This document shows positions 1 to 52,465 of a stretch of 52,936 bases of DNA, in pieces (position 1 is the first letter of the stretch; each line of letters starts with the position of its first letter). Position numbers and translations under genes: made by a program. The notes beneath the pieces were generated by a model, which worked only from the letters and a program-made list of their open reading frames with translations, had not been told where the DNA came from and ran no database searches. The stretch is from Escherichia phage JEP7, in the sequence record MT764207.1. One strand, given 5' to 3'.

Positions 1-1449
1 ATGAATCTTGACTTTCACCTGCATGACAGACAAGGTGCCGCTCTGCGGTCTCAGGCAACTGAGATTCTGTACGGGGGTGCTGCTGGTGGTGGTAAGTCTC
101 ACCTTATGCGTGTAATGTCAATTATCATGTGTTGCATGATACCTGACTTGCAGATTTACCTTTTCCGCCGAAACTATAACGACCTTACGGCTAACCACAT
201 GGTTGGTCCCACAAGTTATCCTGCCTTGCTGGATGGTATGTGCAAAGCTGGCAAGTGCAAGATTAACTACTCTAGCAACACTATTAAATTCTGGAACGGT
301 GCGAACATCAAACTCTGTCACCTCCAGTACGAAAAAGATATTTATACCTACCAGGGTGCGGAGATTCACGTTCTGCTGATGGATGAGCTTACTCACTTCA
401 CAGAAACGATGTACCGCTTCTTGCGTAACCGTGTCCGACTCGGTGCTCTCAAAGTCCCCGAGAACTTTTTCCGGCCTCTGCCACTCATCTTTTGTGGGTC
501 AAACCCCGGTGGTGTAGGTCACAACTGGGTTAAGCGTACTTTCGTAACTGCTGCTCCTCCGATGAAAATCGTTAAGCAGGAAAAACGCGAAGGTGGTATG
601 GCGCGTCAGTACATACCAGCTAAGATGACTGATAACCCTACGTTGATGGAAAACGACCCTGATTACGGCGACCGTCTTGAAGGTCTTGGTGACCCGGCGC
701 TTGTTGCCGCGATGAAAGAAGGCGACTGGGATATTGTTGCAGGTGGTGCACTCGACGATGTATGGTCAACCAAGTGTATTCTGCCTCGTATGCGTATTCC
801 AAAAGGCTGGACTATCGAACGTTCTCTTGACTGGGGTTCTACTCACCCGTTCTCTGTTGGTATCTGGGCTATTGCAAATGGCGCTTCGCTTACAGACGAC
901 GAAGGCAATGAGTACTTTATTCCGCGTGGTTCCATTATACGTATAGCTGAATGGTATGGGTGCTCTGAAAAAGAAGCTAACAGGGGTATTAAACTTTCTG
1001 CTGCCGAAGTTGCTCAAGGTGTTCTCCGCTTACAGGAAAATCTGCAAGCTGGTGGCTGGATTCAAAGCAACGTTAATCCTGGTCCGGCTGATAGTCAAAT
1101 TTATGCGTGTAAGGAAAAAGACGTTGAGACTATCGCGAAGAAAATGGAAGACGAAGGCGTAACCTGGGTCAAGGCCGACAAGTCACAAGGTTCGAGAATA
1201 AATGGCTTAGAACTATTCCGTCAGCTTCTGAAAAATGTTAAGATGGACGAAACGGAAAAGCCGGGCATTTATTTCATGGAAAACTGTCCAGCAGCCATAA
1301 ACACGTTGCCGGTTCTGCCGCGTGACAAGAACAACACGGAAGATGTCGACACGAACTCTGAAGACCACGTATACGATGATTGTCGTTACATGGTGTTGCG
1401 TGGCATCAACCGTTATACTACCAAGCTCAAAATAAATATGGGACGGTAA
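1..1449 (+). CDS. terL: terminase large subunit
   Basis: 482 aa; N-terminal Walker A-like P-loop YGGAAGGGKS; immediately upstream of portal-sized gene; first gene of the morphogenesis block. Confidence 0.8.
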   Translation: MNLDFHLHDRQGAALRSQATEILYGGAAGGGKSHLMRVMSIIMCCMIPDLQIYLFRRNYNDLTANHMVGPTSYPALLDGMCKAGKCKINYSSNTIKFWNGANIKLCHLQYEKDIYTYQGAEIHVLLMDELTHFTETMYRFLRNRVRLGALKVPENFFRPLPLIFCGSNPGGVGHNWVKRTFVTAAPPMKIVKQEKREGGMARQYIPAKMTDNPTLMENDPDYGDRLEGLGDPALVAAMKEGDWDIVAGGALDDVWSTKCILPRMRIPKGWTIERSLDWGSTHPFSVGIWAIANGASLTDDEGNEYFIPRGSIIRIAEWYGCSEKEANRGIKLSAAEVAQGVLRLQENLQAGGWIQSNVNPGPADSQIYACKEKDVETIAKKMEDEGVTWVKADKSQGSRINGLELFRQLLKNVKMDETEKPGIYFMENCPAAINTLPVLPRDKNNTEDVDTNSEDHVYDDCRYMVLRGINRYTTKLKINMGR

Positions 1450-1450
1450 A

Positions 1451-3013
1451 ATGTCGATAACCCCAAGCAGCACGCCTAACGTCGGATACCAGCGTCCTGA
1501 GCTGACTAAGAACGCTGGTAAGTACCGAATGATTAAGGACTGCATCGAGGGTCAGGAAGCTGTTAAAGCACGCGGTGATTTTTATCTGCCTCGTCCTGAC
1601 CCTACGAACTGCACAGAAGAAAACCTGATGCGGTACAATTCGTACCTGCGTCGCGCTGTGTTCTATAACGTACTACAGCGAACTCTTTCGGGTATGACTG
1701 GCCTGGTATTCCAGCAGCAACCTGAGATGCTGATGCCTGATGATATGGAAGTGCTGAAAGTAAATATCGACGGTGCAGGTATCGGTGCTATTCAGCAAAT
1801 GCGTAAGTGCTTTAAATCAGTGCTTGCGTTTGGACGGGCAGGATTGCTGACTGACTTTCCAAAAGCACGTATCGGTGAGTTTGGTGAATCCATTGGTTTT
1901 ACACGTAAAGAACTAATGGACGGAGAAGTGCAGCCGACAGTAACGCTGTACATGCCATGGCAGATTATAAACTGGCGAGAAGAGTATCGCAACGGCAAAG
2001 TGATGCTCACTCAAGTTGTCATTTGCGAGCAAATACCGGGGGTTACTGATGGCTTTCAGCAAGACTACACACCCGTGTGGCGTCACCTTTACCTGGATGA
2101 AGAAGGCAATTGCAACCAGTCTTTGTGGGTCAATAAGGGCGACAAGAATGCGCAGAACGTCTCCGGTGGTGCGTTGTATGTCACGCAGGAAAATGTTGTC
2201 TTACGCGACTCCAATGGCTTACCGTTGAAGTTTATTCCGTTCCAGTTTATTGGTTCTGAAACAAACAGCGCTGAGATTGACCCTCCGCCGATGTACGACT
2301 TAGCTGTGCTTAATATTGCACACTACCGTAACTCTGCTGACTACGAAGAGTCATGCTTCGTAACAGGTCAACCCACAGTATGGGCGTCTGGGCTTACTGA
2401 GGCATGGGTTGAAGATGTTCTGAAGGGTGAACTGCGACTTGGTTCGTTTGGTGGTATTCCGCTGCCGGCTAACGCCGCTGTAGGTATTATCCAGACCAAC
2501 CCTAACACCCAGCCGTTTGAAGCGATGAAGCAAAAAGAAGCGCAGATGATTGCAATCGGTGCTCGACTGATTCGCGAGAACGGTAAGGTAGAACGACGCG
2601 AAGTTGAGATTAAGAACGAAGCTGCATCTGAGGCATCGCTTATCGTAACTGTTGCGCAGAACGTTGAAGCTGCTTACCGTAAGGCAATCGAATGGTGTGG
2701 TCTGTTCTACGGACACCCTAAAGAAGAGATTACGATTAACCTGAGCTACAACTTCATCTATAGCCAGTTGACGTATCAAGAACGCCAACAGCTGGTTAAC
2801 GAATGGATTGCTGGTGCTATCACGTTCAGTGAGATGCGTAGTAATCTCAAACAGGCTGGCATTGCTAAACTCACTGACGAAGAAGCCAAGAAGCTCATTG
2901 ACGAAGAGCTGGCTGAACGTGATGCACGTGAGGTAGCAAAAGAAGCAGAAAAGAACGCTCAAGCAGCTAAGAACAGCGATGGGCAGGAAAATAATCCAGA
3001 AAAAACTGAATAA
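1451..3013 (+). CDS. portal protein (putative)
   Basis: 520 aa ORF directly after terL (stop/start 1 nt apart) and before scaffold/capsid genes; acidic C-terminal tail; assignment by synteny and size. Confidence 0.55.
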   Translation: MSITPSSTPNVGYQRPELTKNAGKYRMIKDCIEGQEAVKARGDFYLPRPDPTNCTEENLMRYNSYLRRAVFYNVLQRTLSGMTGLVFQQQPEMLMPDDMEVLKVNIDGAGIGAIQQMRKCFKSVLAFGRAGLLTDFPKARIGEFGESIGFTRKELMDGEVQPTVTLYMPWQIINWREEYRNGKVMLTQVVICEQIPGVTDGFQQDYTPVWRHLYLDEEGNCNQSLWVNKGDKNAQNVSGGALYVTQENVVLRDSNGLPLKFIPFQFIGSETNSAEIDPPPMYDLAVLNIAHYRNSADYEESCFVTGQPTVWASGLTEAWVEDVLKGELRLGSFGGIPLPANAAVGIIQTNPNTQPFEAMKQKEAQMIAIGARLIRENGKVERREVEIKNEAASEASLIVTVAQNVEAAYRKAIEWCGLFYGHPKEEITINLSYNFIYSQLTYQERQQLVNEWIAGAITFSEMRSNLKQAGIAKLTDEEAKKLIDEELAERDAREVAKEAEKNAQAAKNSDGQENNPEKTE

Positions 3014-44599: not shown

Positions 44600-44860
44600 A
44601 TGAGCTCCTTATAAAAGATTAAGGGGGTAAAAAAGGGGGATACAAGTACCGGATAAAGGGGGTATATATTTATTTATTATTATTATTATTATTATATATT
44701 ATTAATTATATTAGAAGTAATAAAAACAGCTACTTAGAGGCGTCTATATGTATGATCCGGTTTATCTCTTTATTAATATCAGAACCGGATGAAAAAAATT
44801 TACGCCGGCGAAAAAAATAAAAAAGCCGGATTGATAAATAAATCTGTAGACGTTTACACT
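44600..44860. repeat. AT-rich iteron/microsatellite region (candidate replication origin or regulatory hub)
   Basis: three AAGGGGG(T/A)A copies (44622, 44634, 44656); (TTA)7 microsatellite about 44676-44697; repeated CCGGAT/ATCCGG/GCCGGC motifs each followed by A-runs. Confidence 0.4.
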
Positions 44861-44882
44861 GTAAAAAAGATGTGCTACAATA
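44854..44882 (+). promoter_or_regulatory. sigma70-like promoter (TTTACA-N17-TACAAT)
   Basis: upstream of gene starting 44936. Confidence 0.45.
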
Positions 44883-44935
44883 TTTATCAATGTTGCTGAT
44901 TACCAAAACTTTGAATTGTATACGAGGCTGAATAA

Positions 44936-45367
44936 ATGGTTAATATAAGACAGAAAGGACAGAACTTTGAGCGTAAAATGGCTAAGAAGTTTAATAGCTC
45001 GTTCGGATTAACTGTTGAGCGCAATCTTCAACAGTCTATTAATGGCGGGGATGACTTGCTGGGTGTGCCGTTTTTCAGTGTTGAACTGAAGAAGCACAAT
45101 ACCAAGTCTATCGGAACATGGTGGAGACAGTGTGCGGCATCGGCAAAGGCTCAGAACAAGATGCCGGTACTGATATACGAACTACCAAGAAAACAGCCTA
45201 CCGTGGTGATGAATAAGGCTGATGTGATTGACTGTTTTCCAAGTGGCACGACTTTTAACGAGGCATCGAACCGCCTCTTTGTGGGTCTAGTAGAATTAAC
45301 ATGGGAACAATTTTGCCGGGTCTACAACTATTACGTTGCGCCCGGCACTCAATATCACGTCAATTAA
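44936..45367 (+). CDS. putative PD-(D/E)XK-type nuclease (Holliday-junction-resolvase-like)
   Basis: 143 aa; motif GGDDLLGVPFFSVELKKH consistent with D...ExK nuclease core; weak call. Confidence 0.3.
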   Translation: MVNIRQKGQNFERKMAKKFNSSFGLTVERNLQQSINGGDDLLGVPFFSVELKKHNTKSIGTWWRQCAASAKAQNKMPVLIYELPRKQPTVVMNKADVIDCFPSGTTFNEASNRLFVGLVELTWEQFCRVYNYYVAPGTQYHVN

Positions 45368-45549
45368 TCTTGTTTCAGCTCGTCACAAATGACACGCTGA
45401 TTTTTGGCAGGGATAATACCAAGATTCAGTAAGGTGTATGGACTATCGGCGGCACATTGTTCAACGGTAGTCCATTCAGTTTTGGATTCAACAATTTTGT
45501 AACTACAATCATGAGTAGCCACACATGTTGCCAGGATTAAGCCAATCAC
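45364..45549 (-). CDS. hypothetical small protein
   Basis: 61 aa, GTG start; hydrophobic N-terminus with LATC lipobox-like motif but no charged n-region. Confidence 0.25.
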   Translation of the reverse strand: MIGLILATCVATHDCSYKIVESKTEWTTVEQCAADSPYTLLNLGIIPAKNQRVICDELKQD

Positions 45550-45725
45550 AAGTAATCGCCTTCAACCAGGAACTCAAACAGTTGGTTGTAAACGTTGCAA
45601 CCTTTAGCGAAAGAGCTTTCAGCAGGTTTACCATCGCGGACGATCATCATATACTCACCGCCATGAATATCAACCCAATATTGCATGCCACCTTTGACCG
45701 TGTTACGTTGTAAGAATTTAAACAT
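45546..45725 (-). CDS. hypothetical small protein (not in ORF track)
   Basis: 59 codons; ATG overlaps upstream stop (TAATG); AAGGAG RBS; translation MFKFLQRNTVKGGMQYWVDIHGGEYMMIVRDGKPAESSFAKGCNVYNQLFEFLVEGDYL. Confidence 0.35.
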   Translation of the reverse strand: MFKFLQRNTVKGGMQYWVDIHGGEYMMIVRDGKPAESSFAKGCNVYNQLFEFLVEGDYL

Positions 45726-45970
45726 TATTTGCTCCTTATTCCAAGTTTATTCAATAACCAAATTGTCATGTCAACCCAGGTTAACGGTACAGTTTTCGGG
45801 GGTTGATAATTCCAGCAGCTTGCAGTTCTTTGTATTTCTGCTTGGCGCCGCTCCGCTTCGCGTAATACCGCATCGTCAGAAGTGCCGGCAGAAAAAAGAT
45901 CGGTAACACCAGATAAATCGCGTTGATTAACACGTCGAGCAATGTCATATAAATCATCCTTAGAAAACAT
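45725..45970 (-). CDS. hypothetical protein
   Basis: 81 aa; start overlaps the 3' end of the 41-codon ORF upstream. Confidence 0.3.
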   Translation of the reverse strand: MFSKDDLYDIARRVNQRDLSGVTDLFSAGTSDDAVLREAERRQAEIQRTASCWNYQPPKTVPLTWVDMTIWLLNKLGIRSK

Positions 45971-46085
45971 AAGCCAATACCATAAGAATTATCAGAAAGA
46001 TCCCAACCAGCTTCCTCATAGCCCGACCTTCAGCATATGCAGGATTCACAACAGAATACTCAACAACATGTTTACATCGGACCAT
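45960..46085 (-). CDS. hypothetical small membrane peptide (not in ORF track)
   Basis: 41 codons; GGAGG RBS 4 nt before ATG; C-terminal hydrophobic helix KLVGIFLIILMVLAYVF. Confidence 0.3.
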   Translation of the reverse strand: MVRCKHVVEYSVVNPAYAEGRAMRKLVGIFLIILMVLAYVF

Positions 46086-46197
46086 AAGGCCTCCACTTGT
46101 GGGTTAATTCAAGCATGAGGACTTTCATCAAATCCTCAGGATTGAATTAATTACCAGCTTTTAATCAAGCCCTGTCAGCGCCAGGACTTGACTAATA

Positions 46198-46398
46198 TCA
46201 CTCTATCATTACCTGAACTACTATTATACACTCTTTATTGAAGCGAGTAAACACTTTTCCACCATTAGTGCGTTTAGCCCCAGATTTTAGAGCTGACTGG
46301 CACCAGATATGCCACTCCTCAACTGTCAAGAATTTTTGCTCAGCTTTGGGTGGCAATCCATGGGCAAGGTCTACCGTCGTAAATTTGACTAGTGGCAT
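46198..46398 (-). CDS. hypothetical protein
   Basis: 66 aa from ATG 46398 (track ORF starts at a GTG at 46401). Confidence 0.3.
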   Translation of the reverse strand: MPLVKFTTVDLAHGLPPKAEQKFLTVEEWHIWCQSALKSGAKRTNGGKVFTRFNKECIIVVQVMIE

Positions 46399-46787
46399 CA
46401 CTTGACCTCAAACTTTGACTCGTCGTATTCCGGATCAGTCACGTCCCGGGTCGCACAATTTTTGATTGCTTCCCAGTAGCGTTGGGCATCATCACCATCG
46501 ACGTAAACCGTCCAGTGGCCATAACCACCTTCAAATCTGTCCCAGGCTTGTTCCCAGACTTTGCCATCTTCCAGCTTGTACCAAGTTGGACGACTGTCAA
46601 ACTCACGAATTGGATGGTACCCCATCAAGGGATTCATCAGGTCGATAATGTCTTCCCGACTAATCTCCTGGTTCTCCCACAACACCGTCATGAATTGCTC
46701 AAACTTGAAGGCGTTTGGCAGAACTTTGAGTACTTTACCGTCACAATATACGGTATAGGTGCCATCTTCGCATTTTGCACTGTACAT
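46398..46787 (-). CDS. hypothetical protein
   Basis: 129 aa from ATG 46787 with AGGAGAG RBS; preceded by conserved leader and dyad. Confidence 0.35.
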   Translation of the reverse strand: MYSAKCEDGTYTVYCDGKVLKVLPNAFKFEQFMTVLWENQEISREDIIDLMNPLMGYHPIREFDSRPTWYKLEDGKVWEQAWDRFEGGYGHWTVYVDGDDAQRYWEAIKNCATRDVTDPEYDESKFEVK

Positions 46788-46855
46788 GTTTCTCTCTCCT
46801 ATTGATATAATTTCAATCATGAACTATCACAACTTTGGATAGTTCATTGTTGAAA

Positions 46856-47029
46856 CTATACTAACTTTGTTGCGATCTGAATTGTCAGCCGGAAATCTTC
46901 CATCAAGTTATCAAACTCTTTGGAACCACCAACAGCATCAGATATTTGATCTTTCACAATTTGGGCATTTGATTCCAGTAATTCAATCAGGTGCGCCAAT
47001 TCGTCTTCAGTCAATTTCAAATCTTTCAT
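46856..47029 (-). CDS. small acidic helical protein, paralog family member A
   Basis: 57 aa from ATG 47029; N-terminus MKDLKLTEDELAHLIELLE similar to the products of 47289-47447 and 48144-48317. Confidence 0.35.
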   Translation of the reverse strand: MKDLKLTEDELAHLIELLESNAQIVKDQISDAVGGSKEFDNLMEDFRLTIQIATKLV

Positions 47030-47283
47030 AATGCATCCACCCAAGCCATAACTTTTGCCAGTCTTACAACGTCTTCATGGTCCCGCTCGCCATCAGAAAA
47101 TTCGCTGGCGATGATATCCATAATTGACGCCAGATTCATGTTGATGATGTAGGCGTGTTGGCGCACTTCATCAATTCCTGAATCTATCACCAGTTCCGCA
47201 AATTCTTGTGAACCTTCATCCCATTCAGCCCAATACTGCTCAGCATAAAAGTCCAGTTCTTTTTTCATCTCAATATCAGTCAT
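47026..47283 (-). CDS. highly acidic small protein
   Basis: 85 aa, many D/E and aromatic residues; AGGAG RBS. Confidence 0.35.
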   Translation of the reverse strand: MTDIEMKKELDFYAEQYWAEWDEGSQEFAELVIDSGIDEVRQHAYIINMNLASIMDIIASEFSDGERDHEDVVRLAKVMAWVDAL

Positions 47284-47288
47284 TTTGA

Positions 47289-47447
47289 TTACTCCTCAGA
47301 ACCTGAAAATTTGTCATCAATGGACTCAACAATATAATCAAGAGTTGAAGTGTGAGAACTATCAGAAAAAGTGCCCATCTTCTCCAGCTCAATCATCATA
47401 TCCCGTAAAGCCATTGCCTGGTCTTTGGTCAGTTTAATTTTAAGCAT
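47289..47447 (-). CDS. small acidic helical protein, paralog family member B
   Basis: 52 aa from ATG 47447 with CAGGAGAG RBS; MLKIKLTKDQAMALRDMMIELE. Confidence 0.35.
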   Translation of the reverse strand: MLKIKLTKDQAMALRDMMIELEKMGTFSDSSHTSTLDYIVESIDDKFSGSEE

Positions 47448-47511
47448 GTTTCTCTCCTGTTGATTGTGAATAATTTCAATTGATGGCACTACTTGAGTGC
47501 CATCTCAAAAA

Positions 47512-48048
47512 TTACTCTTCAGTTTCTTGGGTTTCAGGTTTTTGACCAGTTACTGACTTGCCATCAGTCACTTTACCAGATTTTACATCATTCCGGTAGT
47601 ATGACATATATGACTGGATAACTCTTTTGGCTTTGATGTCATCCGCCTCCATCCCACAGGCTTTCATGGCATCAACTAGGGCCAGTTTGGAATCTTCCTT
47701 ATCCATCAGGTTATAATCCTTAAACACCAGATAACAAGTGTCCTTGGTTGATGGACCAGATGACTTCCGGGTCCCGCCATTGGAAGATCTTGATGCCACA
47801 ACTTTGACCTCTTCAACTTCCAGTTGGTTCAGTTCATCAAACAATGCCTTGACCAACACTTCTTTGGAGTCCTTGACAGTTGCAGAACTTTCATCATTAA
47901 GGGACTTAATCATCTTAATGATCTGGTTATTGGCAAAGTACTGAAGACTATCCATCTGCACTACAATAGTCCCAAGACTTTCAGTAGTCAGACCAGATTT
48001 TACAGACTCAACAGAAAAGGCGGAAGTCAGGTAAACATAGTTAGTCAT
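47512..48048 (-). CDS. hypothetical protein
   Basis: 178 aa from ATG 48048 with GAGGA RBS; Ser/Lys/Glu-rich. Confidence 0.35.
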   Translation of the reverse strand: MTNYVYLTSAFSVESVKSGLTTESLGTIVVQMDSLQYFANNQIIKMIKSLNDESSATVKDSKEVLVKALFDELNQLEVEEVKVVASRSSNGGTRKSSGPSTKDTCYLVFKDYNLMDKEDSKLALVDAMKACGMEADDIKAKRVIQSYMSYYRNDVKSGKVTDGKSVTGQKPETQETEE

Positions 48049-48143
48049 TGATGTATCCTCATTGATAGAATTTTTGATAAGTGTCAATCCTTGACAAGTA
48101 AGTCCAATCATGAGGACTTTTACCAAGTCCCCATTGTTGGAAA

Positions 48144-48317
48144 TTACTTCAACTTATCCAGAATTGATTGGAGTAACTTGACCCTCACTTCCTGGTCTTT
48201 GACATCCCTTCCACTCTCCCTGTCATATTCCAACAGGTCACTTTCCATAAATAAAGTAGTGTCCAATTGGTCAACCAATAATTCCAGTTCTTCTTGGGAC
48301 AATTCTAAAACTTTCAT
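48144..48317 (-). CDS. small acidic helical protein, paralog family member C
   Basis: 57 aa from ATG 48317 with AGGAGT RBS; MKVLELSQEELELLVDQLD. Confidence 0.35.
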   Translation of the reverse strand: MKVLELSQEELELLVDQLDTTLFMESDLLEYDRESGRDVKDQEVRVKLLQSILDKLK

Positions 48318-48321
48318 CTTA

Positions 48322-48468
48322 TTACTCCTGATATTTAATAACTTGGGATTGGATAAAGTCAACACAATCTTCCACATCCATTGACTCAAAGTCTGGAACT
48401 GGACCATTGTTTATATTGACACACCAAAGCCCTTCATTGGTATCATACCAAAGTGTGTAGTTGTCCAT
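48322..48468 (-). CDS. hypothetical small protein
   Basis: 48 aa from ATG 48468 with GAGGTGA RBS; first gene of leftward early block. Confidence 0.3.
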   Translation of the reverse strand: MDNYTLWYDTNEGLWCVNINNGPVPDFESMDVEDCVDFIQSQVIKYQE

Positions 48469-48834
48469 CTTAATAGTCACCTCTTGTACTAGTTTCCAGT
48501 TGTGACTACTGTTACCAATAGTCACTGGTTGAAACTATTACTAGTGTTACTATCAACAAGAAACATGTTACCAGATTGTTAAAGAGCAAAAGGTACCATT
48601 GACATCTACCAGATGTACCTGTTGACTGGTTAAGTACTACCTACCCAAATTAAACCATACTAATACCCTCCAGACCAGTTGACTGGTCACTTGGTCATCA
48701 CATTCAATAAATATATAATAGTCCAATCCCTCTTGATTGTACACCTTATATTTGTAAGTTTATGCAAGTTTTTAGAAATGATAATCACTTGCGATTGAGA
48801 GTGGTTCTCATATGCAATTGATATAGTTTCACAT

Positions 48835-48914
48835 GTAATTACTCACTTCAAAATGGTCGGCGGGGGTTATAGTAACGTAGGGGTGCCACTTAAAGGAGCC
48901 GGCGAAATTATTTC
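48835..48914. repeat. GC-rich direct repeat, copy 1
   Basis: TAATTACTCACTTCAAAATGG-TCGGCGGGGGT...GGGTGCCAC...AGGAGCCGGCGAAATT; imperfect copy of 49010-49090. Confidence 0.5.
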
Positions 48915-49009
48915 TAAAAATATAATTTCAATCTGAATTATAGACGCTTTGTACTATAACGGCCGAAGTAGTTCACCCGGTAATTGTACCAATCATAATA
49001 GTTACCAGA

Positions 49010-49090
49010 GTAATCATTTCAATCGAAATAGGTGCGGCGGGGGTAATTTCGCAAGGGTGCTACCCGCCAGGAGCCAGCGGAATTTTTTTA
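49010..49090. repeat. GC-rich direct repeat, copy 2
   Basis: TAATCATTTCAATCGAAATAGG-TGCGGCGGGGGT...GGGTGCTAC...AGGAGCCAGCGGAATT followed by a T-run. Confidence 0.5.
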
Positions 49091-49319
49091 TTTTTTGGTA
49101 TTTTTGCCTTATCAGGACCAATCATCATCAGATTGATACAATAGGAGCTAACCTTTTGCCTAACACAATAATAAGTGAAGCCCCTCTAAAATTTTTTTTT
49201 ATATTTTTCGGAAATTGTGTAGACACTCACTAAAAAGTGGTGTACTTTCTCTCCTCCACGCGCTATCATTAATGTGAATCATCAAACGGCCTCACGGTCT
49301 CCTACTTGTGGGTAACATT

Positions 49320-49805
49320 ATGAAAATTGTTCAATTAGAGCCATATCCGCCTCAATTGGCTATCGTTTGCAGCGAAAAAGAGCACGAAGAGCTCCAAAAA
49401 CTGATGGATTTGCCTGATTTTGGCAACTGGAATGACCGAGAAACGCGTACTGCATCTACCTTTACGTTCTCTCGCGTTAACTATCCGTACCTGTTAATCG
49501 TCGTCGAGCTGTACCACCCGGACGACCTGAAGTACAACACCATTTCCCACGAAGGCATTCACGTAATGTCGTCGCTGATGAACTATGTCGGCCTTAAATA
49601 CGACCCAGAAAACGATGAATGGTACGCATATCAGCATGATTTCATCGTAAATGCCATTTGTAAGGCCCATGACGAGTACATTGAGCGCCAAAAAACGCCA
49701 AAAACTAAGCCAAAAATCGAAACAGGCAACCATCCTGTGATACTGCCACAAGACGTTATGAACTCGCTTTTGACTGACACTACTGGGGACTTTTTAGGTG
49801 ATTGA
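49320..49805 (+). CDS. HExxH-motif protein (putative zinc metallopeptidase-like)
   Basis: about 161 aa from ATG 49320 (track starts at a GTG at 49308); HEGIH motif (NTISHEGIHVMSSLM). Confidence 0.3.
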   Translation: MKIVQLEPYPPQLAIVCSEKEHEELQKLMDLPDFGNWNDRETRTASTFTFSRVNYPYLLIVVELYHPDDLKYNTISHEGIHVMSSLMNYVGLKYDPENDEWYAYQHDFIVNAICKAHDEYIERQKTPKTKPKIETGNHPVILPQDVMNSLLTDTTGDFLGD

Positions 49806-50307
49806 AATACTCCGTAAGTATTTTCGCTATGAGCCAGACACAGGCTTATTGTACAGAATACGACAGGCTAAAACAGGTAAACGAGTCGATTTGAGCCAGC
49901 CTGTAGGCACGGAACATAGCGGTTATCTGTTTTGCAGTGTACCAGAAGGCATTCGTACAAAGCCTGTGCACGTAATCTGCTATGCTTTACAAACTGGCGA
50001 ACTACCTGAAGTAGTTGACCATAAAGATGGTAACGGGCTTAACAACAAATGGTACAACCTTCGTAACGGTACTCAAACGCAGAACCGGTATAACTCAAAA
50101 GTCAAATCAAGTAACACAACAGGCGTAAAAGGCTTGTTTGAGTACGCACCAAAAGGTCGTAAACCTCTTTGGAAAGCCAGCATTAAAGTAGATGGAGTCA
50201 ATCATCAGAAGTATTTCCCTTATACTGATAACGGTAGGCTGGAAGCTATTGAGTGGCTTGACGAACAAAGACATCAACATGGCGAATTCGCCAACAAAGG
50301 AAATTAA
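49798..50307 (+). CDS. HNH homing endonuclease with AP2-like DNA-binding domain
   Basis: 169 aa; HNH core VVDHKDGNGLNNKWYNLRNGTQTQN; C-terminal GVKGLFEYAPKGRKPLWKASIKVDGVNHQKYFPYTDNGRLEAIEW resembles AP2 domain. Confidence 0.75.
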   Translation: MIEILRKYFRYEPDTGLLYRIRQAKTGKRVDLSQPVGTEHSGYLFCSVPEGIRTKPVHVICYALQTGELPEVVDHKDGNGLNNKWYNLRNGTQTQNRYNSKVKSSNTTGVKGLFEYAPKGRKPLWKASIKVDGVNHQKYFPYTDNGRLEAIEWLDEQRHQHGEFANKGN

Positions 50308-50308
50308 T

Positions 50309-50983
50309 GTGATAAACCTAATCTTCGCAATGGGCCAAAATGGGGAATTCGGGTTATCTCCGGAGTTTATGAAGCATCAGGTTGACTCGTGCAAGACCAT
50401 GGAAGAGGTTCGTGCGCTTCCTAAGTCTGGTCTGCCCTGGAAATGTCCGTCAGACATGCTCTTTTTCAGGACTATGACTAATTCAGTTGCGACAGAACCA
50501 GGCTATAATGCGTATCAGCAACTACGTGGACAGTTCCCAAGTGACCAGTTGCGAAACATGATAGCAGATGTAACGGTAAAAATGGTCGGACATAGTGTAC
50601 TGTTAGCCGGTCGTAACACGTATATGACTATGAGTCTGCCTATGTCAGCCCACAGAATACTGCTGCCGGTATCTCGCCAGATTATGGCTTCAGAAGGCTA
50701 CAATAATTTGGGTGAGATGGCAGCAGACCTTGAATCCAGAGGTACTGACGTCTGGATTGTAGGCGGTGCCGAGTTGATACTTTCGGCCCTTGAAGAGCAT
50801 GCAAAAGACTTACTCCGTATCGACAACATGTTTATCAGTACGATCAAGCAATCAGGTCCAAGTGATATTTTAATGGATCGTAGCAAATTAATGATGTACA
50901 TTGATAGCGACTTCACTTATAATGATGAATATGTTGATAACAAACAAGTTCTGATACAACGGTACAGGAGTTTACACGAATGA
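50309..50983 (+). CDS. dihydrofolate reductase
   Basis: GTG 50309 with AAAGGA RBS (in-frame ATG also at 50279); DHFR-like order of motifs: INLIFAMGQNGEFG, LPW, DMLFF, VLLAGRNTY, VWIVGGAELI. Confidence 0.75.
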   Translation: MINLIFAMGQNGEFGLSPEFMKHQVDSCKTMEEVRALPKSGLPWKCPSDMLFFRTMTNSVATEPGYNAYQQLRGQFPSDQLRNMIADVTVKMVGHSVLLAGRNTYMTMSLPMSAHRILLPVSRQIMASEGYNNLGEMAADLESRGTDVWIVGGAELILSALEEHAKDLLRIDNMFISTIKQSGPSDILMDRSKLMMYIDSDFTYNDEYVDNKQVLIQRYRSLHE

Positions 50984-51486
50984 ACATCATAATCGAGGGT
51001 CCCGATAATGCTGGTAAAAGTACACTTATTGAGTTCCTTAAATCTCATACTGGCCGCAATGTTATTCATAATACTGTTGATAAAGACCCCGAATCGGTCA
51101 TGGCTAAACAGGCCAAAGAAAACGCGTTGGAAGGCAATTGCATTTATGACCGTAGCGCTGTTATATCTGAGTATATCTATTGTCTGGTTCTTCAACGTAC
51201 GCCTGTCATCAATATTAATGTATCACATGTAGCAGATATGTGTGACAACGCCATCGTTATCTTTTGTATGCCGCCTGTTGAAAAGGTACTGGCAACTACA
51301 AAAGACGAAATGCCTGGTGTTGTGGAAAATCTTGAGGCGTTATACAATCAGTATGACAACCTCATTGACGAGCTGGTTATGATGAGTAAGCAGTTCTTCA
51401 TTTACGACTGGACTGTTGAAGAAGACGGTCCTGAAGCAGTTCTCGAATACATCAACGAACGTATTAATAAGGAGTGGAACAAATGA
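50980..51486 (+). CDS. P-loop deoxynucleoside monophosphate kinase (thymidylate-kinase-like)
   Basis: 168 aa; N-terminal Walker A IIIEGPDNAGKST; CAGGAG RBS; adjacent to DHFR. Confidence 0.55.
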   Translation: MNIIIEGPDNAGKSTLIEFLKSHTGRNVIHNTVDKDPESVMAKQAKENALEGNCIYDRSAVISEYIYCLVLQRTPVININVSHVADMCDNAIVIFCMPPVEKVLATTKDEMPGVVENLEALYNQYDNLIDELVMMSKQFFIYDWTVEEDGPEAVLEYINERINKEWNK

Positions 51487-52175
51487 GCCCAGTATACAAT
51501 AGCACAGTCACGCTGTCAGCAACCGTAGGAGACGTCAACAAGACTGTTACTGTGGGTTCAACTAACCCGAACCTGTCAGGTGACGACCTGCTGCGCCTGG
51601 CCAAACGTGCTCTTGAAGATAACGAAGTGACTGGTACTGAAGGCGTCAGCATTGAAATTAACGTCGAAGGATGTCCACACAGCATCAGTATTGCGACTTC
51701 TGGCGATGAAATTGAAAAGTTCAACGATGAGCTGGAATATCGTACTGGTGAGATGTTCAGCAGTGCTCTAAACTGGTACTTGTGCAAGGCCTCAAACTAC
51801 GCTGGCGCTCCTATGTCAGACCGTATGTTAGCTGATATGTCAGCTCGCGAAATTGCTAAAGGCTGGGCGCATGTACAGATGCTGCAGGAGCATATCTGCA
51901 AGCTGGAAAGCTGCAATAAAGATGCGTCTGAGCTTATCACTGCCTATAAACGGCAGATTACCGACCTGCAGCAACTGATGGGCAAGCGTGCTGAAGAATA
52001 TGAGGCTGAGATTCGTAGCCTTAACGGTACAGCTGTTGCTAATAACCGTGCTTTCAGCGAAGAGCGTAAAGCGCTTATTGCCCAGCGTGACGCTGAAAAA
52101 CGTCGTGCAGACGACCTGGCAGATCGTCTCAACTTTATCCGTAAGCATATGGATGCTATGGAAGGGGTAATCTGA
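51483..52175 (+). CDS. hypothetical protein
   Basis: 230 aa from ATG 51483 (overlaps kinase stop, GGAGTGG RBS); C-terminal coiled coil. Confidence 0.3.
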   Translation: MSPVYNSTVTLSATVGDVNKTVTVGSTNPNLSGDDLLRLAKRALEDNEVTGTEGVSIEINVEGCPHSISIATSGDEIEKFNDELEYRTGEMFSSALNWYLCKASNYAGAPMSDRMLADMSAREIAKGWAHVQMLQEHICKLESCNKDASELITAYKRQITDLQQLMGKRAEEYEAEIRSLNGTAVANNRAFSEERKALIAQRDAEKRRADDLADRLNFIRKHMDAMEGVI

Positions 52176-52465
52176 TGGACTTGTTCGATATGGTCGAACA
52201 TCCTGAAGTAAACGGCTTAGCCTCCGCCAAGCCGTTTAGCTGGGATGAGTTCGTAGCAGGCAAACCTGCTGTAACCCACAACGGGCAGATTGCATATTAC
52301 GGAGGCCATAGCGAACATCCGATGTGCACTCACCTGTACAACGCTATAACAACCATAACCGATGAAAACGTTATTAAATACGGAAAAGAGGTAATGCCTT
52401 TTCTTGTAGATGAGCGCGGTTACTTCGAAGGTAAATGGTTCCCGTTTCTGGTAGAAATGGCCTAA
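52175..52465 (+). CDS. hypothetical protein
   Basis: 96 aa; ATG overlaps upstream stop. Confidence 0.3.
   Translation: MDLFDMVEHPEVNGLASAKPFSWDEFVAGKPAVTHNGQIAYYGGHSEHPMCTHLYNAITTITDENVIKYGKEVMPFLVDERGYFEGKWFPFLVEMA

What the first reader, a model, noticed from the sequence alone, without database searches (positions are those of the whole stretch)
48835..49090. Pair of about 80-bp GC-rich imperfect direct repeats in an AT-rich non-coding region
Copy 1 (48835-48914) and copy 2 (49010-49090) share the order TAAT..TTCAA..AAATGG / GCGGCGGGGGT / GGGTGC.AC / AGGAGCC.GCG.AATT at roughly 70 percent identity. Each contains internal G/C complementarity (GGCGGG...CCCGCC in copy 2), and copy 2 ends in a long T-run. 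Neither folds as a tRNA in my manual attempts. They could be small structured RNAs, paired protein-binding sites, or transcription pause or termination elements.
Basis: seen in the sequence. Interest (0 to 1): 0.55.

Follow-up and report, generated by a model that had tools for sequence, protein, structure and literature searches.

The report
Repeated signal at phage genome end
The two GC-rich repeats are real, and the second sits where related phages' packaged DNA ends, so they are most likely protein-recognised DNA signals that mark where the replicated phage chromosome is cut for packaging, not RNA genes.

Summary
The two units align at 59 of 85 columns (z = 7), are 61-66% GC in 30-37% GC DNA, and each is about 100 bp (48815-48914, 48990-49089).

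The window is a Rosemountvirus genome with its long direct terminal repeat (DTR) collapsed to one copy. In three relatives with read-based termini (vB_SalM_Sz, fHy-Eco03, AEV23), the right DTR boundary falls inside copy 2, after GCC (window 49075|49076). The left end is at 44806|44807 (GCC|GGCG). The AEV23 paper's DTR length of 3,915 bp equals left end to copy 2 exactly.

Both copies, and their 175-177 bp spacing, are kept in five lineages whose neighbouring protein is only 37-39% identical. Copy 1 is a hybrid. Its left half matches copy 2, and its right half matches the first 45 bp of the genome (TAGAC at +40 in both).

Nothing supports RNA, tRNA, a terminator or coding sequence.

Best reading: these are DNA recognition and cleavage modules for the terminus-generating nuclease (terminase). 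Copy 2 is the right-end cut site and copy 1 is an internal accessory or ancestral site. Binding and cleavage are inferred, not shown. This is a new member of a known kind, of moderate interest.

The parts
48815..48914 (+). Copy 1 (C1) of the roughly 100-bp module: GTTTCACATGTAAT (48826-48839), GAAA-like box, GGCGGGGGT (48859-48867), GGGTGC (48881-48886) and GCCGGC with its cut-equivalent position at 48900|48901. It lies inside the predicted DTR, 175 bp left of the right end.
   Evidence: Mean identity across 5 lineages is 0.74. The bottom-strand PWM score is 11.2, one of only 4 hits in the window.
48901..48945 (+). Right half of C1: GGCGAAA, then an A/T-rich 36 nt, then TAGAC at 48941-48945. 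It resembles the first 45 nt of the genome's left end, not the right flank of copy 2.
   Evidence: the L-right versus C1-right alignment gives z = 2.3-4.9 in 6 lineages. TAGAC or TAGGC sits at offset 39-40 in L and 40 in C1 in every lineage. Mean identity is 0.85.
48990..49089 (+). Copy 2 (C2) of the module: GTTACCAGAGTAAT (49001-49014), GAAAT, GGCGGGGGT (49036-49044), GGGTGC (49055-49060) and GGAGCC|AGCGG. The predicted right physical end of virion DNA is at 49075|49076.
   Evidence: Searches give DTR boundaries at the homologous position in Sz, fHy-Eco03 and AEV23. The bottom-strand PWM score is 27.9, the best in the window.
49076..49097 (+). Outer flank of the right-end cut: AGCGGAA followed by T7AT6. 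It is the first DNA outside the DTR. Read on the minus strand it is an A-run, then TT, then N, then GCT^GGC, the same layout as the outer flank of the left-end cut.
44785..44829 (+). Left-end site (L): CCGGATGAAAAAAATTTACGCC|GGCGAAAAAAATAAAAAAGCCGG. The predicted left physical end is at 44806|44807.
   Evidence: In AEV23, phage homology stops exactly at this cut. The top-strand PWM score is 16.7.
44807..49075 (.). Predicted direct terminal repeat (4,269 bp), present once in the window because the deposited or assembled genome is collapsed.
   Evidence: By homology to Sz (4,263 bp), fHy-Eco03 (3,699 bp) and AEV23 (3,915 bp).
44847..44881 (+). TAGAC box at +40 from the left end, followed by a strong sigma-70-like promoter (TTTACA, 17 nt, TACAAT with TG) that reads into the first DTR gene (a PDDEXK/RusA-like nuclease, 44936-45367).
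49178..49208 (+). Possible third, partial copy (C3-like): AAGCCCC TCTAAAA T9 ATA T5. It shares the 'AAG, then a C-rich core, then a T-run' end of the module but lacks GGC and the G5 box. It lies upstream of TAGACA (49220) and the invariant TAAAAAGTGGTGTACTTT.
   Evidence: PWM score 13.8. Conserved in all 11 genomes.

Best explanation
The two repeats are paralogous copies of a roughly 100-bp double-stranded DNA module that serves genome-end formation in a phage with a long direct terminal repeat. Each module has a recognition part: a small inverted repeat GTTAC-N4-GTAAT, GAAA, a G5-TAA box, GGTG and TTAAG. This is followed about 30-33 bp after the G-box by the motif GCC|GGC and an A/T tract. 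Copy 2 carries the cut that makes the right end of packaged DNA (49075|49076). The same GCC^GGC motif, preceded on the cut strand by an A-run and TT, occurs in inverted orientation at the left end (44806|44807). The concatemer junction carries one DTR. Nicks on opposite strands at L and C2, followed by strand-displacement synthesis, would duplicate the 4,269-bp repeat, as proposed for T7. Copy 1 lies 175 bp inside the DTR. It is not the end reported for any of the three phages with read-based termini. It most likely acts as an accessory binding site for the terminase or end-processing complex, in the manner of cosB or pacB, or as a second 'effector' copy of the cut site. Shown: the position of the ends in three relatives, the conservation, the shared cut motif and the absence of RNA or coding signals. 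Inferred: which protein binds, nicking versus double-strand cutting, and the role of copy 1.
For: (1) Physical ends. In vB_SalM_Sz, deposited with two identical 4,263-bp DTR copies, the right end is ...CCTGCCAGGAGCC|AGCGGAATTTTTTT, inside copy 2. In fHy-Eco03 (DTR 3,699 bp, from PhageTerm plus restriction digests, PMC8145870) it is ...TTTAAGCCCC|GGCAAATTTTTT, at the homologous position. In AEV23 the published PhageTerm DTR of 3,915 bp (PMC12918118) equals the L-to-C2 distance exactly; L-to-C1 would be 3,740 bp. Phage homology in that record also stops exactly at the L cut. Restriction mapping of S144 places a physical end in this same intergenic gap (PMC7432712). (2) A PWM trained only on other phages' L (top strand) and C2 (bottom strand) sites finds 4 hits above 8 bits in about 106,000 window positions: C2 27.9, L 16.7, a C3-like site 13.8 and C1 11.2. 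(3) Both copies and their 175-177 bp spacing are kept in 11 genomes from 5 lineages, although the adjacent protein is only 37-39% identical between those lineages. Mean identity is 0.74 for C1 and 0.63 for C2, against 0.51-0.57 for the spacer and flanks. (4) The architecture is modular. C1 and C2 share the left half. C1 and L share the right half, with TAGAC at +40. (5) There is no conserved ORF, no RNA family, no tRNA and no stable or covarying fold. (6) The genome encodes a large terminase and portal at 1-3013.
Against: The ends were not determined for this phage itself; they are transferred by homology. No binding or cleavage data exist, and the ends in databases are 5' ends after library end-repair, so a blunt cut, a staggered cut and nicks cannot be told apart. 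One Rosemountvirus paper (vB_SenM-1, PMC7503781) reported a 'COS' call from PhageTerm with termini elsewhere. Copy 1 is better conserved than copy 2 and follows an invariant extended -10-like ATTGATATAGT, so part of the conservation could serve transcription. The A/T tracts next to L and the C3-like site sit where UP elements of promoters would be. The left end lacks the G-box module at the same distance; G5 boxes lie 143-184 bp upstream instead. The recognition part therefore cannot be the whole story for both ends.
Confidence: 0.6

Rival explanations
1. The repeats are operator or promoter-associated binding sites for a transcription regulator or RNA polymerase in the divergent early control region. 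The genome end merely happens to lie there.
For: The 780-bp region lies between divergent gene clusters. An invariant extended -10-like ATTGATATAGT ends 7 nt before copy 1, and a weaker CATAATAGT precedes copy 2. The right halves of L, C1 and the C3-like site share an A/T-rich tract followed by TAGAC, which at L and at 49220 abuts promoter-like hexamers. GTAAT is locally enriched: 4 occurrences against 0.38 expected (post hoc).
Against: This does not explain why three independently determined right ends fall at the same GCC| position inside copy 2. It does not explain why the same cut motif recurs at the left end on the opposite strand. The -10-like element of copy 2 loses its A2 in the other lineages, and no -10 follows TAGAC at C1. 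The two roles are not mutually exclusive.
Confidence: 0.15
2. Copy 1 is a functionless evolutionary relic: a right-end to left-end junction created by end-joining or duplication, followed by deletion. Only copy 2 is functional.
For: C1 is exactly the C2 left half joined at GCC|GGCG to the L right half. This is the sequence expected if a right end were ligated to a left end. None of the three phages with read-based termini has its reported end at C1.
Against: C1 is the better conserved copy: 0.74 overall and 0.85 for its right half, against 0.51-0.57 for neighbouring non-coding DNA. It and the 175-177 bp spacing are retained in five lineages whose adjacent protein has diverged to 37-39% identity. 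A neutral relic should have decayed.
Confidence: 0.12
3. The repeats encode small structured RNAs, or copy 2 is an intrinsic terminator or pause site.
For: Copy 2 of Rosemountvirus has GGCGGG...CCCGCC and is followed by T7AT6. A promoter-like element precedes copy 1.
Against: Rfam gives 0 hits at gathering score and at E<=1. ARAGORN finds nothing. Folding z-scores are +1.55, -0.14, -0.53, -1.07, +0.18 and -0.08. The consensus folds are -2.1 and -8.8 kcal/mol with zero or unfavourable covariation terms. The hairpin is absent in the Loughboroughvirus, SOI901 and KE25 copies, and the terminator scan calls nothing at copy 2.
Confidence: 0.05
4. The repeats are iteron-like elements of a replication origin located in the AT-rich region at the DTR boundary.
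For: The context is AT-rich with several conserved short repeats and palindromes: TGCAAGT twice, TGATAATCA and GAGAGTGGTTCTC in 48720-48833. Origins of linear phages often lie near the ends.
Against: There are only two full copies, 175 bp apart, rather than an array. No initiator gene is adjacent. The idea does not explain the coincidence with the cut sites.
Confidence: 0.08

Closest known systems
Concatemer-junction packaging signals of T7/T3 (separate terminase-binding pacB and cleavage pacC elements; terminal repeat duplicated during processing)
   Same: Exact, sequence-specific ends. One repeat copy per concatemer junction must be duplicated (T7 model summarised in PMC10438801). Recognition sequences sit next to, but are distinct from, the cut. 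Related cut motifs occur at the two boundaries.
   Different: The repeat here is 4.3 kb, against 160-230 bp. The phage is a myovirus with no phage RNA polymerase (PMC7432712). There is no sequence similarity. A full paralogous copy of the right-end module lies 175 bp inside the repeat. Details of pacB and pacC are from my own knowledge and were not tested here.
Lambda cos (cosQ-cosN-cosB)
   Same: A composite site in which a nicking core with partial twofold symmetry is flanked by repeated binding sites for the small terminase subunit, plus an extra element needed for the terminal cut. A/T-rich bendable DNA lies alongside.
   Different: Lambda makes 12-nt cohesive ends at a single site. Here two cut sites 4.3 kb apart give a long direct repeat. 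The comparison is from established knowledge, not a test.
Exact-DTR Bacillus cereus-group phages (SBP8a, I48-like, Q8-like)
   Same: Position-specific ends. The terminal sequence at one end (5'-AGGTTTT...) is the inverted complement of the other (...AAAACCT-3'), and the authors read this as the terminase recognition or cleavage site (PMC5418689). Here the A-run, TT, GCC^GGC layout is likewise inverted between L and C2.
   Different: The motif and the phages are unrelated, and no duplicated 100-bp module is reported there.
Long terminal repeats of T5 and SPO1-type phages
   Same: Kilobase-long exact DTRs that carry early host-takeover genes, and a collapsed single copy in most assemblies.
   Different: As far as I know, the cis-acting boundary signals of those phages are not defined at sequence level. 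There is no similarity to compare.
Type IIE restriction enzymes such as NaeI (GCC^GGC), which need a second, uncut copy of the site as an allosteric effector
   Same: The same hexamer core, GCC|GGC. The arrangement is two copies, of which one (C2) gives the reported end and the other (C1, a perfect GCCGGC) does not.
   Different: This is an analogy from memory only. No NaeI-like protein was sought or found, and the cut at C2 in this window is GCC|AGC, not a perfect NaeI site.

Membership tests
Phage genome-terminus (terminase recognition and cleavage) site at a DTR boundary | Coincides with a physical end of virion DNA | tested here: met
   Met by homology. The right ends of Sz, fHy-Eco03 and AEV23 map inside copy 2, after GCC or CCC. 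S144 restriction mapping places an end in this gap. It was not measured for the window phage itself.
Phage genome-terminus (terminase recognition and cleavage) site at a DTR boundary | The same cut motif at both boundaries of the repeat, and rare elsewhere in the genome | tested here: met
   The leave-window-out PWM gives 4 hits above 8 bits: C2, L, the C3-like site and C1. The genome-wide 99.99th percentile is 3.7 bits.
Phage genome-terminus (terminase recognition and cleavage) site at a DTR boundary | Conserved in related phages beyond the neutral background | tested here: met
   Present in 11 genomes from 5 lineages. Identity is 0.74 and 0.63 against 0.51-0.57 for the flanks, and spacing is 175-177 bp.
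Phage genome-terminus (terminase recognition and cleavage) site at a DTR boundary | Bound and cut by the phage terminase, and required in cis for packaging | not testable with these tools
   Needs EMSA or footprinting, in vitro cleavage, and mutant phage or plasmid-transduction assays.
Intrinsic (rho-independent) terminator | A G+C-rich hairpin with a short loop immediately followed by a U-run, conserved in relatives | tested here: not met
   The scan calls none at copy 2. The stems possible before the T-run differ or are absent among lineages.
Structured small RNA (any Rfam family or a novel one) | A match to a covariance model, or a fold more stable than shuffles with compensatory changes | tested here: not met
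   Rfam gives 0 hits. Z-scores run from +1.55 to -1.07. RNAalifold gives -2.1 and -8.8 kcal/mol, and the long-range pairs are invariant or broken. Only a 5-bp GTTAC/GTAAT inverted repeat shows one compensatory swap.
tRNA or tmRNA | Cloverleaf detected by ARAGORN | tested here: not met
   0 genes in the whole window.
Protein-coding gene | An open reading frame conserved in frame and strand across relatives | tested here: not met
   Stop-free stretches over C1 and C2 change strand, frame and extent between lineages. The G-run length varies (5 or 6 G) among close relatives.
Iteron-type replication origin | An array of three or more short direct repeats next to an AT-rich unwinding element and an initiator gene | tested here: inconclusive
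   There are two full copies plus a partial third, in an AT-rich context, and no initiator was identified nearby.

The most novel reading that the evidence does not exclude
Long direct terminal repeats in this phage group are made by a 'split-site' system. An ancestral single cut site survives as copy 1, with its left half joined to its right half at GCC|GGCG. Its right half was copied to the left boundary and its left half to the right boundary, so one nuclease makes strand-specific nicks at A-run-TT-GCC^GGC on opposite strands 4.3 kb apart. The uncut hybrid copy 1 acts as the obligatory loading or effector site that licenses the right-end cut 175 bp away. This would be a sequence-defined, testable mechanism for how kilobase-long terminal repeats are specified. 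That question is still open for T5- and SPO1-type phages.
Probability: 0.25. Interest if true: 0.65.

Novelty: new member of a known kind. Interest (0 to 1): 0.45.

Why it matters
Most deposited genomes of this phage group (Rosemountvirus, Loughboroughvirus and allies, used as Salmonella and E. coli biocontrol candidates) are collapsed, arbitrarily opened circles without termini. The motifs defined here allow the true ends and the roughly 3.7-4.3-kb terminal repeat to be placed by sequence alone. For this window that gives 44807-49075. They also provide concrete cis-elements (L, C1, C2) for testing how a terminase specifies a long exact terminal repeat, which is poorly understood compared with cos, pac and T7-type short repeats. 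Knowing the ends also matters for engineering and rebooting these phages from synthetic DNA.

Tried and rejected
- **tRNA or tmRNA:** ARAGORN found none.
- **Known RNA family:** Rfam gave nothing at gathering score or at E<=1.
- **Stable RNA fold of either copy, either strand, or the whole 265 nt:** none was better than shuffles.
- **Conserved consensus structure:** none was supported.
- **Intrinsic terminator at copy 2:** not called, and no conserved hairpin.
- **Coding potential:** no conserved frame.
- **A further copy at 45798/45884 (GGGGGTT ... GCCGGC):** this lies in coding sequence and is unrelated.
- **Global enrichment of GGGGGTW or GCCGGC:** not enriched in the genome, only locally clustered.
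- **Widening the family:** the IMG/VR protein-pattern and DNA-pattern scans returned only the four RefSeq genomes already known. The single metagenome scan with the invariant 18-mer gave 46 hits, of which only one 1.6-kb contig was related, so there are no extra lineages and no informative contig ends.
- **AEV23 record ends as direct evidence:** the record is chimeric with E. coli DNA and starts 8 nt inside the repeat. Only the homology breakpoint and the published DTR length were used.
- **Copy 1 as an alternative right end:** no deposited record ends there, but minor ends cannot be excluded without reads.

Full report
**1. The observation**

Copy 1 (48835-48914) and copy 2 (49010-49090) align at 59 of 85 columns. 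The global score is 25, against -12.9 +/- 5.3 for 2000 dinucleotide-preserving shuffles (z = 7.1). An unbiased local alignment of the two halves of the intergenic region picks out the same pair, with score 32 against a shuffle maximum of 20. It lengthens the unit to about 100 bp: 48815-48914 and 48990-49089.

The cores are 61% and 66% GC. The spacer between them is 30% GC and the whole intergenic region 37%. Copy 2 is followed by T7AT6. The GGCGGG/CCCGCC complementarity is real but belongs only to copy 2 of Rosemountvirus genomes.

**2. Context**

The window is a complete Rosemountvirus genome. It is colinear with Escherichia phage vB_EcoM_PiR (OM313461, 52,936 bp) and 92-98% identical in this region to about 45 Salmonella and E. 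coli phages. More distant relatives are in Loughboroughvirus, the fHy-Eco03/vB_SE1_KM lineage, Erwinia phage SOI901 and KE25/KE26.

The repeats lie in a roughly 780-bp AT-rich gap. To the left is a leftward cluster of small early genes, ending at 48468/48525. To the right is a rightward cluster starting at 49308. The large terminase and portal genes are at 1-3013.

**3. The key result: copy 2 contains the physical right end of the virion DNA**

Three relatives from three lineages have read-based termini, and all three place the right end inside copy 2.

| Phage | Lineage | DTR length | Right end | Source |
|---|---|---|---|---|
| vB_SalM_Sz | Rosemountvirus | 4,263 bp (two identical copies in the record) | ...CCTGCCAGGAGCC \| AGCGGAATTTTTTT | |
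| fHy-Eco03 | fHy-Eco03/KM | 3,699 bp (PhageTerm, checked by restriction digests, PMC8145870) | ...TTTAAGCCCC \| GGCAAATTTTTT, the homologous position | |
| AEV23 | Loughboroughvirus | 3,915 bp (PhageTerm, PMC12918118) | left cut to copy-2 cut is exactly 3,915 bp; copy 1 would give 3,740 bp | |

- The Sz record starts at GGCGAAAAAAATAAAAAAGCCGG.
- In the AEV23 record, phage homology also stops precisely at the left cut, where foreign E. coli DNA is joined to GGCGGAAAATTT.
- The left-end sequence occurs once in the window, at 44807.

By homology, the window phage has a 4,269-bp direct terminal repeat at 44807-49075, collapsed to one copy in the record. The right end falls at 49075|49076, inside copy 2, and the T-run is the first DNA outside the repeat.

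**4. Anatomy of the sites**

Across six lineage representatives the left end is always ...A-run-TT-N(2-5)-(G/C)CC|GGCG.... Read on the bottom strand, the right end is A-run-TT-N(1-3)-GC(C/T)^GG(C/G). The two boundaries therefore carry the same motif in inverted orientation. This is what would be expected if one nuclease cuts or nicks opposite strands with the 'outside' DNA on the same side of the enzyme.

A position weight matrix was trained only on the other phages' left-end (top strand) and copy-2 (bottom strand) sites. It finds four hits above 8 bits in the roughly 106,000 positions of the window:

| Site | Strand | Score (bits) |
|---|---|---|
| Copy 2 | bottom | 27.9 |
| Left end | top | 16.7 |
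| Conserved partial copy at 49184 | bottom | 13.8 |
| Copy 1 | bottom | 11.2 |

The 99.99th percentile of all positions is 3.7 bits.

**5. Conservation**

Both copies are present in all 11 genomes compared, from five lineages. A 22-sequence alignment of all the copies gives this consensus: GTTAC..GTAAT..GAAA..G..GGGGG..T..C..GTG..TA..T..GCC|GGC..A.TT.TTT.

The distance between the two cut motifs is 175-177 bp in every genome. Mean pairwise identity among the five lineages is:

| Segment | Mean identity |
|---|---|
| Copy 1 | 0.74 |
| Copy 1, right half | 0.85 |
| Copy 2 | 0.63 |
| Spacer between the copies | 0.57 |
| DNA to the right of copy 2 | 0.51 |

The protein encoded immediately downstream is only 37-39% identical between these lineages. 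The elements are under selection.

**6. Copy 1 is a hybrid**

The left half of copy 1 is the paralogue of the left half of copy 2. Its right half is GGCGAAA, then 36 nt of A/T-rich DNA, then TAGAC at +40. That resembles the first 45 nt of the genome's left end, not the right flank of copy 2. The alignment gives z = 2.3-4.9 in six lineages, and TAGAC or TAGGC sits at +39/40 at the left end and at +40 at copy 1 in every lineage.

Copy 1 therefore looks like a right end joined to a left end at GCC|GGCG. None of the three phages with read-based termini has its reported end there.

**7. Alternatives tested**

- *RNA.* Rfam finds nothing at gathering score or at E<=1, and ARAGORN finds nothing. The minimum free energies of each copy, on either strand, and of the whole 265-nt span are no better than shuffles, with z from +1.55 to -1.07. 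RNAalifold gives -2.1 kcal/mol for copy 2 and -8.8 kcal/mol for copy 1 with an unfavourable covariation term. The long-range pairs are invariant or broken.
- *A small inverted repeat.* The only pairing kept by a compensatory change is a 5-bp inverted repeat, GTTAC-N4-GTAAT, which is ATAAC-N4-GTTAC in fHy-Eco03 and KM. It sits at the 5' edge of the unit and is as easily read as a dimer-binding DNA site.
- *Terminator.* None is called at copy 2, and the possible stems before the T-run differ or vanish between lineages.
- *Coding.* No frame is conserved.

**8. Interpretation**

I conclude that the repeats are DNA signals for genome-end formation. Copy 2 is the right-end recognition and cleavage module. 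The left end shares only the cut core and the outer flank. Copy 1 is an internal paralogue.

The T7-type scheme fits the inverted arrangement: one repeat per concatemer junction, cuts at both boundaries, and the second copy made by synthesis (PMC10438801). Nicking versus double-strand cutting cannot be decided from database ends.

For copy 1 I favour an accessory loading or effector role. The reasons are its strong conservation and its fixed distance from the cut. The relic explanation is weakened by the same facts.

A transcriptional role cannot be excluded and may coexist. An invariant extended -10-like ATTGATATAGT (48817-48827) points into copy 1. The A/T tracts beside the left end and the 49178-49208 element sit where promoter UP elements would be.

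One paper reported a PhageTerm 'COS' call for a Rosemountvirus (vB_SenM-1, PMC7503781). This conflicts with the three DTR determinations, and I regard it as the weaker evidence.

**9. Comparison with known systems and novelty**

Functionally, the closest systems are:

- the T7/T3 concatemer-junction signals;
- lambda cos;
- the inverted terminal motifs of exact-DTR Bacillus phages (PMC5418689).

There is no sequence relationship to any of them. The position of the repeat boundary is already annotated for fHy-Eco03. I did not find the following described in the papers I could search: the duplicated module, its conservation, the shared inverted cut motif and the hybrid nature of copy 1.

I rate this a new member of a known kind, a phage terminus or packaging signal, with moderate interest. 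It would become more interesting if copy 1 proves to be a required second site.

**10. Limits**

The family is small: 59 records, with no further lineages in IMG/VR or the metagenome scan. The ends are inferred for this phage by homology. All protein-DNA steps are inference.

Noticed in passing
window 45500-52399 versus L001 (OM313461.1): The window has the same length and coordinates as vB_EcoM_PiR, but over 6,900 bp it differs by 314 substitutions and no indels. The differences are spread very unevenly (0-39 per 300 nt), and many in coding regions are spaced by multiples of three. It looks like a mosaic or another version of the record. Unexplained.
   Followed up: partly
window 48720-48833: This is the most conserved non-coding block of the intergenic region (mean identity 0.80 in five lineages). 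It contains TTGATTGTACA, TGCAAGT twice, TGATAATCA, GAGAGTGGTTCTC and the invariant ATTGATATAGT (an extended -10-like TGnTATAGT) pointing into copy 1. It could hold early promoters or operators, or be part of the packaging signal.
   Followed up: partly
window 49220-49248: TAGACA, then 17 nt, then TACTTT, with the 18-mer TAAAAAGTGGTGTACTTT invariant in all 11 genomes. It lies 60 nt upstream of the first rightward gene. It is probably a conserved promoter or regulatory site of unusual sequence.
   Followed up: no
window 44623-44714: Three G5 boxes (GGGGGTA, GGGGGAT, GGGGGTA) are followed by a (TTA)n/(TA)n microsatellite. They lie 95-185 bp outside the left end and are partly conserved in other lineages. 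The stretch is annotated as 'repeat_region' in the MT0744xx records. The G5TAA box is the same motif as in copies 1 and 2, so this may be the left-end counterpart of the recognition module.
   Followed up: partly
window 49891-50307: An HNH_3 homing-endonuclease gene (Pfam E = 8e-10) is inserted between the first rightward gene and the dihydrofolate-reductase-like gene. fHy-Eco03 has only a short unrelated ORF at that place.
   Followed up: no
window 44936-45367: The first gene inside the terminal repeat encodes a PDDEXK_15/RusA-like nuclease (Pfam 5e-18). It is driven by a near-consensus promoter (TTTACA, 17 nt, TACAAT) 46 bp from the left end. A nuclease at the leading end could take part in end processing.
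   Followed up: no
L018 (OR810919.1, AEV23) record 53,890-55,637: The deposited AEV23 genome is chimeric. E. coli-like DNA (an IS5 transposase and a methyltransferase) is joined exactly at the phage left end, and the record starts 8 nt inside the repeat.
   Followed up: yes
PP583539.1 (hit H11): A record named 'Listeria phage 220426122051' is 96% identical to this Salmonella/E. coli phage group. The host label is doubtful.
   Followed up: no
window 48835, 48866, 49010, 49043: Each unit has two GT(A/T)AT motifs 31-33 bp apart, about three helical turns. GTAAT occurs 4 times on the + strand in 48800-49100, against 0.38 expected. This was a post hoc count.
   Followed up: partly
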